From NCBI RefSeq assembly GCF_009914755.1, contig NC_060937.1: 64,000 nucleotides of DNA. One strand, given 5' to 3'. Positions 42,540-45,094 of this stretch are shown in pieces. Made by a program: the position numbers and the translations under genes. Positions within the stretch are counted from its first letter, which is position 1. The number at the start of each line of letters is the position of its first letter. The notes beneath the pieces were generated by a model. It ran no database searches and was not told the origin of the DNA. It worked only from the letters and a program-made list of their open reading frames with translations. Source of the stretch: the human T2T-CHM13v2.0 reference genome, Homo sapiens.

Positions 42540-43054
42540 GTTTTTTTTTTTTTTAAACTTTTTTTCTTCTTCTTATTTTTGTACATGACTAAGTTCTTTA
42601 GTGGTGATTTCTGAGATTTTGGTGCACCCATCACCTGTAGCCTTTTCTCTGTCACCCCCCTCCCACCCTTTCCTCCAACTCCCCAAAGTCCAAAGTCCAT
42701 TGTATCATTTGTATCATTTTTTTTTTTTTTTTTGAGACGGAGTCTCCCTCTCTCCCCAGGCTGGAGTGCAGTGGCATGATCTCGGCTCACTGCAAGCTCC
42801 CCTTCCTAGGTTCACGCCATTCTCCTGCCTCAGCCTCCTGAGTAGCTGGGACTACAGCCTCCCGCCACCACACCCGGGTAATTTTATTTTTGTATTTTCA
42901 GTAGAGACGGGGTTTCACCGTGTTAGCCATGATGGTCTTGATCTCCTGACCCCGTGATCCACCCGCCTTGGCCTCCCAAAGTGCTGGGATTACAGGCGTG
43001 AGCCACTGTGCCCAGCCAATCCTTTGTATCATTTTTATGCCTTTGCTCCCTCAT
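42540..43054 (-). mobile_element. L1PB-type 3'UTR/tail, split by AluY
   Basis: aagttctttagtggtgatttctgagattttggtgcacccatcacc; ccccaaagtccattgtatcatt...atgcctttgc. Confidence 0.88.
42717..43017 (-). mobile_element. AluY inserted into L1PB 3'UTR
   Basis: caagctcc and ttcacgccattctcc diagnostics; TSD ...tcc(a/t)ttgtatcattt on both sides. Confidence 0.92.
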
Positions 43055-43374
43055 GGCACTGGGCAGGCTGAGGCAGGAGAATCAGGCAGGGAGGTTGCAG
43101 TGAGCAGAGATGGCGGCAGCACAGTCCAGCTTGGGCTCGGCATCAGAGGGAGACCGTGGAAAGAGAGGGAGAGGGAGACCGTGGAAAGAGAGGGAGAGGG
43201 AGACCGTGGGGAGAGGGAGAGGGAGAGGGAGACCGTGGGGAGAGGGAGAGGGAGACCGTGGGGAGAGGGAGAGGGAGACCGTGGGGAGAGGGAGAGGGAG
43301 AGGGACAGGGACAGGGAGAGGGAGAGGGAGAGGGACAGGGAGAGGGAGAGGGAGAGCGAGAGCGAGAGCGAGAG
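43055..43374 (-). mobile_element. SVA 5' fragment: (CCCTCT)n hexamer plus start of the Alu-like domain; no VNTR, SINE-R or poly(A)
   Basis: Minus strand: (ccctct)n, ccacggtctccctc repeats, then ctgatgccgagcccaagctggactgtgctgccgccatctctgctcactgcaacctccctgcctgattctcctgcctcagcctgcccagtgcc. Confidence 0.93.
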
Positions 43375-43415
43375 CTCGGGCTGATTTCTTATTCTCCGCC
43401 TTTGAAAAAAAAAAG

Positions 43416-43833
43416 CTGGTCTGTAGTTTTCTGTTTGGGTTATGTCCTTTCTTGATTTTGGTATTAGGGTGAGGCTGGCTTCATAGAATGATTTAGGAAG
43501 GATTCCTTCTTTCTCTATCCTGTGCATAGTGTCAAGAGGATCGCTACCAATTCTTTTTTGAATGTCTGATAGAATTCAGCTGTGAATCCATCTGGTCTTG
43601 GACTTTTTATTGTGTTGGCAGTTTTTAAATTACCATTTCAATCTTGCTGCTTGTCATTGGTCTGTTTAGAGTTTCTATTTCGTCCTAATTTAATCTAGGA
43701 GGGTCGTATATTTCCAGGAATTTATCCATCTCCTCTAGATTTTCTAGTTTATGCAGGTAAAGGTGTGCATGGAAGCCTTGAATGATCTTTTGTATTTTTG
43801 TCATATTGGTTGTAATAGCTCCTGTTTCATTTC
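43416..43833 (-). mobile_element. L1PB ORF2 fragment (start of RT domain)
   Basis: Translation [34 protein letters not shown] matches L1 ORF2p. Confidence 0.92.
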
Positions 43834-44487: not shown

Positions 44488-45094
44488 CAACACTCCCCAT
44501 TCATCGGTGGTTTCCTTTTCCTCCATTTCAGTTACCTGAGGTCAACTGTGGTCTTTTCCTTTTCCTCCATTTCAGTTACCTGAGGTCAACTGTGGTCTGA
44601 AAATATTAAATGAAAAATTCCAGAAATGAACAATTCATAAGTTTTGAATTGCACACCATTCTGAGTAGTGTGATAAGATATTGTACTGTCCCACTCTGTC
44701 CTTCCCAGGACATGAATTGTCCTTTTGTCCACAGTCTCCATGTTGTATATGTTAAACATTCATGAGTCACTAAATAGCATCTTTGGTCTGGATTATCATA
44801 TCCCTTATCATATCAACTGCCCTGGTAGATCAGTGCTTATGTTCAAGTAATCCATGTTTTACTTCATAATGGCCCCAAAGCATAAGAGTAGTATTGCTAA
44901 CATATTGCTATAGTTGTTATACTTGTTCTGTTTTTAGTTGTTGTTGTTGATCTCTTACTCTGCCTAATTCTTAAATTAAACTTTATCATGGTATGTATAG
45001 GAAAAATGTAATACAGTGTTAAGTGCTATCCATGGTTTCATGTATCTCCTGGGGGCCTTGAAATGTATGCCCTGTGGATAAGGTTGGACTATTA
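44488..45094 (+). mobile_element. MER44 (Tigger7-derived) DNA transposon
   Basis: ttcagttacctgaggtcaactgtggtctgaaaatattaaatgaaaaattccagaaat; end ccctgtggataaggttggactat; degenerate TIRs. Confidence 0.85.

What the first reader, a model, noticed from the sequence alone, without database searches (positions are those of the whole stretch)
43375..43414. ~30-nt non-repeat filler resembling the U2 snRNA (RNU2) promoter, plus A10, fused to an SVA 5' end
Seen: between the SVA hexamers and the L1 ORF2 fragment lies ctcgggctgatttcttattctccgcctttg followed by A10, which is neither SVA nor L1. Its reverse complement, TTTTCAAAGGCGGAGAATAAGAAATCAGCCCGAG, matches my memory of the human U2 snRNA gene 5' flank between the DSE (ATGCAAAT) and PSE (...GATTTCCCTTTTCAAAGGCGGAGAATAAGAAATCAGCCCGAGAGTGTAAG...). 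That match is recall, not a search. The recalled source has only 4 T/A where this copy has 10, suggesting untemplated adenylation. Inference: L1 machinery copied an oligoadenylated antisense (promoter-upstream) RNA from the U2 promoter and joined it to an SVA cDNA. Alternatives are an SVA 5'/3' transduction from a source element in U2-flank sequence, or DNA capture during break repair. snRNA-promoter antisense RNA captured in a retro-chimera would be unusual; known chimeras are typically U6/L1 and use the mature snRNA.
Basis: partly seen in the sequence, partly recalled or inferred. Interest (0 to 1): 0.85.

Follow-up and report, generated by a model that had tools for sequence, protein, structure and literature searches.

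The report
U2-promoter snippet in inverted SVA stub
A 34-base piece of the human U2 snRNA gene promoter really does sit between the head of an SVA retrotransposon fragment and a short A-run, but it looks like the filler often left by irregular, repair-type retrotransposition, not a new kind of element.

Summary
Window 43375-43408 (34 nt) is 100% identical, in antisense, to -162..-129 upstream of U2 in all 9 RNU2 repeat units on chr17. It occurs nowhere else in this genome except in two diverged orphan copies. The surrounding anatomy changes the reading. The 3' end of the tag (ctc) overlaps the true 5' terminus of an SVA lineage that starts (G)AGCTCTCG. Its last 4 A overlap the A10. Only about 323 nt of SVA are present (5' terminus to Alu-like position ~95), inverted relative to the A10. 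The block replaces about 2.1 kb of an old antisense L1 (ORF2 side confirmed). There is no target-site duplication and no endonuclease-like site, and the far junction has 2-3 nt of microhomology. This is the architecture of twin/dual-priming "5' poly(T)" insertions and of endonuclease-independent, break-repair insertions, which commonly carry extra nucleotides from other RNAs. An oligoadenylated antisense U2-promoter RNA is allowed but not required. A template jump onto either strand, or a short 5' transduction from a lost SVA in an RNU2 unit, fits as well. Interest is modest.

The parts
42571..42716 (-). 3'-terminal part of an old L1 (antisense), left host flank, first piece
   Evidence: blastn to L1 relatives L014-L016
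42717..43017 (-). Alu inserted in the L1 (T-run first), bounded by ttgtatcat(t) direct repeats. A separate, ordinary event.
   Evidence: read from the sequence; the repeat is reported by TRF at 42700-42719
43018..43057 (-). L1 3' part resumed; last host bases before the insertion
   Evidence: aligns to L014 2869-2908; junction alignment
43055..43057 (.). ggc: a 2-3 nt overlap shared by the L1 flank and the SVA (left junction microhomology)
   Evidence: L1 homology reaches 43057; SVA homology reaches 43055 (query 1-121 of 43175 downwards)
43055..43377 (-). SVA 5' fragment: 5' terminus (G)AGCTCTCG..., hexamer/23-mer array, and the first ~95 nt of the Alu-like region. It is 3'-truncated, with no VNTR, SINE-R or tail.
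   Evidence: 97-98% identity to 40 scored of 1975 candidate SVAs; SVAs L019 and L020 continue where the window switches to L1; TRF arrays 43145-43374; same 5' start in other SVAs
43375..43408 (-). RNU2 promoter-derived tag, identical to -162..-129 of the U2 genes. The core is 43378-43404. 43375-43377 is shared with the SVA terminus and 43405-43408 with the A-run.
43405..43414 (+). A10 (T10 on the SVA sense strand). Four A can be templated by RNU2 and six cannot. Not part of L1.
   Evidence: L1 relatives have GATAT before TGGTCTG at this point
43415..43416 (.). gc: two bases that match neither the A-run nor the L1 relatives (junctional filler, or two substitutions)
43417..43833 (-). L1 ORF2 segment (antisense), right host flank. 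About 2.1-2.3 kb of L1 is missing between this and 43057.
   Evidence: 85-87% identity to 40 scored of 6144 candidates; L014 2908 to 5033 gives 2124 bp missing and L016 2797 to 5056 gives 2258 bp; ORF2p residues 496-532

Best explanation
One irregular, reverse-transcriptase-mediated insertion/repair event in an old antisense L1.

Inferred course of events:
- One DNA end (...ctcatggc) primed on an SVA RNA through 2-3 nt of complementarity, about 95 nt into the Alu-like region.
- Synthesis ran to the capped 5' terminus of the RNA ((G)AGCUCUCG...).
- The nascent cDNA end (...ctc) then jumped, by 2-3 nt of microhomology, onto a nucleic acid from the RNU2 promoter. This was RNA of either orientation, or possibly single-stranded DNA. 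About 27-31 nt were copied.
- The terminal aaaa paired with a short T/A run made at the other DNA end from a poly(A) tail.
- The result is an SVA head inverted relative to a 10-nt poly(A) stub, with a U2-promoter filler at the internal junction, no target-site duplication, and loss of about 2.1 kb of target L1.

Shown by tools: the parts, their identities, the overlaps at the junctions and the missing L1.

Inferred only: the order of steps, the enzyme (L1 ORF2p) and the nature of the template.
For: - The tag equals RNU2 -162..-129.
- Only 34 nt of the 6.1 kb unit are present; other matches to the unit are 21 nt or less, in Alu or CT-rich sequence.
- The SVA part ends at a genuine SVA 5' terminus. 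Of 21 other SVA 5' ends examined, 12 start with the same G-type hexamer units and 7 with AGCTCT. L028 has an identical GAGCTCTCGCTCTCGCTCTCGCTCTCC (these loci were chosen by similarity, so the sample is biased).
- The U2|SVA join therefore overlaps by AG or GAG, and the U2|A-run join by AAAA.
- The left junction overlaps by ggc.
- The A10 is not L1, and L1 relatives show no T-rich nick site there.
- 2124-2258 bp of L1 is missing.
- Precedents: 39 L1 loci with a 5' poly(T), read as twin priming with a very short non-inverted part, 22 of them with extra sequence (PMC2837659, abstract and section 4 parts 1-2). In endonuclease-independent L1 insertions, 15 of 21 carry 4-312 bp of extra nucleotides, including an 18-bp mRNA piece and U6, with deletions and microhomology (PMC1920257, abstract and section 11). 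An untemplated G occurs at full-length SVA 5' ends (PMC3287187, passages).
Against: - No pre-insertion allele or ape orthologue could be examined. The deletion and the absence of a TSD are inferred from diverged L1 relatives (85-87% identity).
- T10 is shorter than the 14-39 nt of the published poly(T) loci. Those loci had TSDs, endonuclease-type sites and almost no deletions, and that screen found no SVA example (PMC2837659).
- No RNA covering -162..-129 of RNU2 is documented in the papers found.
- The 303-nt U2 flank has no other dispersed fragment in this genome. There is thus no sign that such an RNA is copied repeatedly.
- The orientation and chemistry (RNA or DNA) of the template cannot be read from the sequence.
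Confidence: 0.4

Rival explanations
1. Short 5' transduction. A full-length SVA of the (G)AGCTCTCG lineage once sat in an RNU2 repeat unit at -129, in the U2 sense orientation. It was transcribed from a start at or upstream of -162, under the influence of the U2 distal enhancer. That RNA was inserted here by twin priming: the inverted part runs to the RNA 5' end and the non-inverted part is reduced to the poly(A) stub.
For: The tag lies directly 5' of a complete SVA terminus, in the same orientation. De novo SVA copies carry 44-45 nt of upstream promoter sequence when driven from outside (PMC3287187, passage at section 23). [quoted passage not shown] The A/T-rich gaataagaaatc just upstream of -129 could serve as an L1 endonuclease site with a 13-16 nt duplication (read by eye; weak evidence).
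Against: All 9 RNU2 units have the 303-nt flank intact and 100% identical. No other SVA carries the tag: of the 12 places matching the 30-mer with up to 3 mismatches, the 11 other than the window itself are all U2 units or orphan units. No 3'-transduced flank fragment occurs elsewhere. This model needs an extra, unobserved generation. The 2-3 nt overlap at the U2|SVA join is less expected for a full-length insertion junction than for a template jump.
Confidence: 0.25
2. A short antisense promoter-upstream RNA of RNU2 (5' end near -129, 3' end at -158..-162) received an oligo(A) tail and served as the template on which reverse transcription started at the right-hand DNA end. Its cDNA was then joined to an SVA cDNA made from the other DNA end (dual priming).
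For: Six of the ten A are not templated by RNU2. From recall, not tested here: -129 lies in the range where divergent antisense starts occur at active promoters, and a ~30-nt length fits promoter-proximal short RNAs. In a dual-priming version no antisense SVA RNA is needed, and the ctc/gag overlap could pair the two cDNA ends.
Against: No paper found reports antisense transcripts at RNU2 promoters (only passages and listings were seen). It requires the RNA 3' end to fall by chance at a genomic AAAA. A 10-nt tail and a target with no T-rich primer make a poor start for target-primed synthesis. No other copy of such an RNA exists in the genome.
Confidence: 0.15
3. DNA-level filler. During end joining of a double-strand break, a polymerase copied about 30 nt from RNU2 DNA in trans, or a stray RNU2 DNA fragment was ligated in, together with an SVA-derived fragment.
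For: Microhomology at all three joins. A gc filler is present. Patches from distant loci are known at break repair sites (PMC5110952, abstract and sections 4-5).
Against: A pure A10 and an SVA piece ending exactly at the RNA 5' terminus point to RNA templates. Published distant patches were enriched for transcribed sequence and were reduced by reverse-transcriptase inhibitors (PMC5110952, section 5).
Confidence: 0.1
4. Two steps. A full-length, tagged, minus-strand SVA insertion occurred first. A later deletion removed most of the SVA plus 2.1 kb of L1.
For: The single left breakpoint, with a ggc overlap, could be a deletion junction.
Against: It leaves the T10 at the SVA 5' side unexplained. 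It needs two rare events. It still needs one of the other models for the tag.
Confidence: 0.05

Closest known systems
L1 insertions with 5' poly(T): twin priming with a very short non-inverted part, or dual priming (Meyer et al. 2010, PMC2837659)
   Same: A retroelement fragment is inverted relative to a short poly(A) stub, so it appears to carry a 5' T-run. There is microhomology at the far junction. Extra non-element sequence was present in 22 of 39 loci.
   Different: Here the element is an SVA; that screen of hg18 found no SVA or Alu case. T10 is below their 14-39 nt range. Here there is no TSD, no endonuclease-type site and a ~2.1 kb deletion, whereas theirs had 7-20 bp TSDs and 5 bp deleted in total. 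The filler here sits at the internal junction.
Endonuclease-independent (non-classical) L1 insertion at double-strand breaks (Sen et al. 2007, PMC1920257)
   Same: No TSD, departure from the endonuclease consensus, target deletion, junction microhomology, and extra nucleotides copied from other cellular RNAs (an 18-bp mRNA piece, U6).
   Different: The element is SVA, not L1. An A-run is present. The extra nucleotides come from a non-transcribed-unit promoter interval of an snRNA gene rather than from a mature RNA. The ancestral state was not verified here.
SVA 5' transduction (for example the MAST2/SVA_F1 groups; 5' TD groups in PMC12593883)
   Same: Non-SVA sequence lies directly upstream of the SVA head, in sense orientation.
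   Different: No source locus, no siblings and no TSD. The SVA is 3'-truncated and inverted relative to the A-run.
U6/L1-type chimeric retrocopies made by template switching (recalled; mentioned in PMC1920257 section 11)
   Same: The reverse transcriptase switches from one RNA to another at an RNA 5' end.
   Different: The partner is not the mature snRNA. The tag lies wholly upstream of the U2 coding region, and the chimera is not framed by TSDs.

Membership tests
5' poly(T) twin-priming insertions (PMC2837659) | Homopolymeric T directly 5' of a sense-oriented, truncated retroelement | tested here: inconclusive
   T10 is present, but it is separated from the SVA by the 27-30 nt tag and is shorter than the published 14-39 nt
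5' poly(T) twin-priming insertions (PMC2837659) | Target-site duplications enclosing the insertion | tested here: not met
   The flanks are non-adjacent parts of one L1, 2124-2258 bp apart in relatives. No repeat is seen at the junctions.
5' poly(T) twin-priming insertions (PMC2837659) | Canonical TTTT/A cleavage site on the poly(A) side | tested here: not met
   L1 relatives read GATAT|TGGTCTG at the breakpoint and the window has gc there. This is inferred from relatives, not from the ancestral allele.
Endonuclease-independent / non-classical insertion (PMC1920257) | No TSD, non-consensus target, deletion of target DNA | tested here: met
   The ancestral allele was not available, so the deletion is inferred.
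Endonuclease-independent / non-classical insertion (PMC1920257) | Microhomology at junctions and extra nucleotides from elsewhere | tested here: met
   ggc; (G)AG; AAAA; 27-34 nt from RNU2
Endonuclease-independent / non-classical insertion (PMC1920257) | Insertion verified against an empty orthologous site | not testable with these tools
   Only this one genome is held (header: no relatives)
SVA 5' transduction | Unique sequence in sense orientation abutting a full SVA 5' end | tested here: met
SVA 5' transduction | A source SVA next to the transduced sequence, or siblings sharing it | tested here: not met
   The 30-mer with up to 3 mismatches occurs at 12 places, none at another SVA. The 303-nt flank is intact in 9 of 9 units. 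This covers one haploid genome only.
snRNA/L1-type chimeric retrocopy | The 5' partner is a mature small nuclear RNA | tested here: not met
   The tag is at -162..-129, outside the Rfam U2 match at L002 1663-1853
SVA retrotransposon (the fragment itself) | Hexamer array followed by the Alu-like region, matching other SVAs | tested here: met
   97-98% identity over 121 nt to 40 scored copies; alignment. The VNTR, SINE-R and tail are absent.

The most novel reading that the evidence does not exclude
The 27-34 nt are a germline fossil of a short, unstable promoter-associated RNA, sense or antisense, made between the distal enhancer and the proximal element of the very active RNU2 genes. L1 reverse transcriptase would have captured it in a template jump from the capped 5' end of an SVA RNA during repair of a chromosome break. 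That would be rare sequence-level evidence that such snRNA-promoter by-product RNAs exist in the germline and are accessible to L1 machinery.
Probability: 0.4. Interest if true: 0.5.

Novelty: new member of a known kind. Interest (0 to 1): 0.3.

Why it matters
It is a clean single example in which a retrotransposition or repair junction recorded three things at once. These are an SVA RNA copied to its exact 5' end, a snippet of one of the most heavily transcribed promoters in the genome, and a poly(A) stub, together with loss of about 2 kb of target. It extends the 5' poly(T) / non-classical insertion architecture from L1 to SVA; a published screen had found no SVA case. It also gives a concrete, testable pointer (-162..-129 of RNU2) for short promoter-associated RNAs. 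As a single, functionless locus in a gene desert it changes no general picture.

Tried and rejected
- Hexamers derived from the RNU2 (CT)n microsatellite: rejected. Only the 34 nt match the unit; everything else is 21 nt or less, in Alu or CT-rich sequence.
- Orphan U2 units (C3:73152205, C17:44237196) as source: rejected. They have 3 mismatches in the 30-mer and 87-89% flank identity.
- A10 as part of L1, or as a target A-run: rejected.
- Another genomic copy of the block: none.
- Other dispersed fragments of the U2 5' flank: none, apart from the window itself, among 13 matches.
- Pfam scan of three L1 peptide pieces: 0 families. The ORF2 identity came from the PDB sequence search instead.
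- Literature searches for RNU2 + SVA (+ transduction or retrotransposon): 2 papers and 1 paper, none relevant.
- Literature search for snRNA genes, divergent or upstream antisense transcription, RNU2: 6 papers, none describing RNU2 promoter antisense RNA in the passages seen.
- PMC3362811 has no chr13 locus in its main text. PMC10681720 and PMC12593883 do not mention snRNA. PMC12593883 has no chr17 or chr13 hit, and PMC10681720 has one chr17 occurrence that was not among the passages shown.
- Supplementary tables of these papers were not opened and could list this locus.
- SVA subfamily assignment and dating were not attempted, because the fragment lacks the diagnostic 3' parts.

Full report
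**What is there**

Read on the + strand, the region contains, in order:
- an old L1 in antisense, its 3' part at 42571-42716 and 43018-43057, interrupted by an ordinary Alu with ttgtatcat(t) direct repeats;
- the reverse complement of an SVA head (43055-43377);
- ctcgggctgatttcttattctccgcctttg (43375-43404);
- A10 (43405-43414);
- gc (43415-43416);
- antisense L1 again from 43417 to 43833.

Tandem Repeats Finder reports the hexamer array at 43163-43374 and the 23-mer array at 43145-43349. The translation of 43417-43575 on the minus strand matches human L1 ORF2p residues 496-532 (8sxt_A, E 3e-9).

**The U2 match is real**

A search of the window's own genome with 43340-43440 returned 11 matches:
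- the window itself;
- nine 34-nt, 100% matches (window 43375-43408) on the opposite strand of C17:44116003-44165328, spaced about 6.15 kb apart;
- one 89% match in a diverged unit.

The 30-mer with up to 3 mismatches occurs at 12 places. Ten are exact (window plus nine units) and two have 3 mismatches. The reversed control gave 0.

In locus L002, Rfam finds U2 at 1663-1853 (193 bits) and the match is at 1501-1534. That places it at -162..-129, downstream of atgcaaat at -221..-214. The proximal element, which I recall lying around -55, was not located by a tool.

The source reads tttt where the window has ten T/A. A 34-mer is expected about 2e-11 times by chance in this genome.

The rest of the 6.1 kb unit is not represented. 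Against a 7-kb stretch of the array, only the 34 nt match; everything else is 21 nt or less, in Alu or CT-rich sequence. The 303-nt U2 flank has 13 matches in the genome: nine identical units, the chr3 orphan (one match), the chr17 orphan (two pieces), and the window's 34 nt.

**The SVA piece and its terminus**

The 126 nt at 43050-43175 (minus strand) match SVAs at 97-98% over query 1-121 (40 scored of 1975 candidates). SVA homology thus ends at 43055. SVAs L019 and L020 continue into their Alu-like region where the window switches to L1.

I searched with the hexamer end and inspected 21 other SVA 5' ends. These were chosen by similarity, so the sample is biased.
- 12 of 21 begin with the same unusual G-type units (CTCTCG).
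- 7 of 21 begin with AGCTCT.
- L028 has GAGCTCTCGCTCTCGCTCTCGCTCTCC, identical to the window.

Two conclusions follow. The window holds a complete SVA 5' terminus. The uniquely U2-derived core is 27 nt. It is flanked by that overlap on one side and by the 4-nt aaaa overlap with the A-run on the other.

**The host site**

- In the L1 relative L014, window 43018-43057 aligns to 2869-2908 and window 43417 onward aligns to 5033 onward. That leaves 2124 bp of L1 missing. In L016 the gap is 2258 bp.
- At the right breakpoint the relatives read GATAT|TGGTCTG. The A10 is therefore not L1, and there is no T-rich nick site.
- At the left breakpoint, L1 homology reaches 43057 and SVA homology reaches 43055. 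This gives a ggc overlap.
- No target-site duplication is present.
- All of this is inferred from relatives that are 85-87% identical, because no ancestral allele is available.

**Reading**

On the SVA sense strand the order is T10, tag, SVA nucleotides 1 to about 320, then host. An SVA head with a 5' T-run and no 3' end cannot come from ordinary target-primed insertion in that orientation.

It fits a published architecture. Meyer et al. (PMC2837659; I read the abstract and section 4, parts 1-2) describe 39 L1 loci with a 5' poly(T). They interpret these as twin priming in which the non-inverted part is reduced to the poly(A) tail, or as dual priming. Extra sequence was present at 22 of the 39 loci. 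They found no SVA or Alu case in hg18, and their loci had TSDs and endonuclease-type sites, which this one lacks.

The missing TSD, the deletion, the microhomologies and the extra nucleotides instead fit endonuclease-independent insertions (Sen et al., PMC1920257; abstract and section 11). There, 15 of 21 loci carry 4-312 bp of extra nucleotides, including an 18-bp mRNA piece and U6, and 31 kb of target was deleted in total.

Untemplated G at full-length SVA 5' ends, and 44-45 nt of upstream promoter sequence on de novo SVA copies, are reported by Raiz et al. (PMC3287187; passages). Patches templated from distant, transcribed loci at break repair sites, sensitive to reverse-transcriptase inhibitors, are reviewed in PMC5110952 (abstract and sections 4-5).

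**Mechanism, with odds**

I consider it most likely (0.4) that the event ran as follows. One DNA end primed on an SVA RNA by ggc. Synthesis ran to the capped 5' end. The ...ctc end then jumped onto an RNU2-promoter template for about 30 nt. The new aaaa end paired with a T-run copied from a poly(A) tail at the other DNA end.

The sequence does not say whether the U2 template was sense or antisense, RNA or DNA.

Rivals:
- a short 5' transduction from an SVA once resident at -129 of an RNU2 unit (0.25). No source, sibling or 3'-transduced fragment was found in this genome;
It is allowed but not required, and I found no supporting paper;
- DNA-level filler (0.1);
- insertion followed by deletion (0.05).

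**Novelty and interest**

Two literature searches combining RNU2 and SVA found nothing relevant. SVA surveys searched by passage do not mention snRNA; PMC10681720 has one chr17 occurrence that I did not see, and PMC12593883 has no chr17 or chr13 hit. Their supplements were not opened.

The locus is a further member of the known class of irregular L1-mediated insertions. Two features are noteworthy: the element is an SVA, and the filler comes from an snRNA promoter interval rather than from a mature RNA. As a single event it cannot establish a new RNA species or a new mechanism. I score interest at 0.3.

Noticed in passing
L046 (G000:C9:142707500-142712700, minus strand): A full-length SVA with its own A12 tail and a 15-nt duplication (agatttactataggc) carries gc plus T10 between the 5' duplication and the hexamers. 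This looks like a TSD-framed SVA example of the 5' poly(T) architecture that Meyer et al. did not find for SVA. The gc + T10 matches the window's gc + A10 on the other strand, possibly by coincidence.
   Followed up: partly
L002-L008 (seven of the nine RNU2 units on G000:C17): The 303-nt promoter flank is identical in all seven units. The U2 coding region occurs in three variants, differing at positions 18 (C/T) and 160 (G/A).
   Followed up: partly
L023 (G000:C3:73150500-73154500) and L009 (G000:C17:44232320-44242319): These are two orphan U2 units outside the array. Each has a full-length Rfam U2 match (156 and 178 bits) and an 87-89% identical 5' flank. They share the same 3 differences in the 30-mer. 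The chr17 unit is inverted and split by Alus.
   Followed up: partly
window 43145-43349: The 23-nt unit containing ccacggtctccctct is present in about 8 copies here. Most other SVA heads inspected have one to three.
   Followed up: no
window 44511-44598: A perfect tandem duplication of a 44-nt unit (2.0 copies, 100% matches) lies in unique-looking sequence downstream of the L1.
   Followed up: no
window 42700-43040: An Alu in antisense orientation sits inside the L1 3' part. The short repeat ttgtatcat occurs twice before the T-run and once after the Alu.
   Followed up: no
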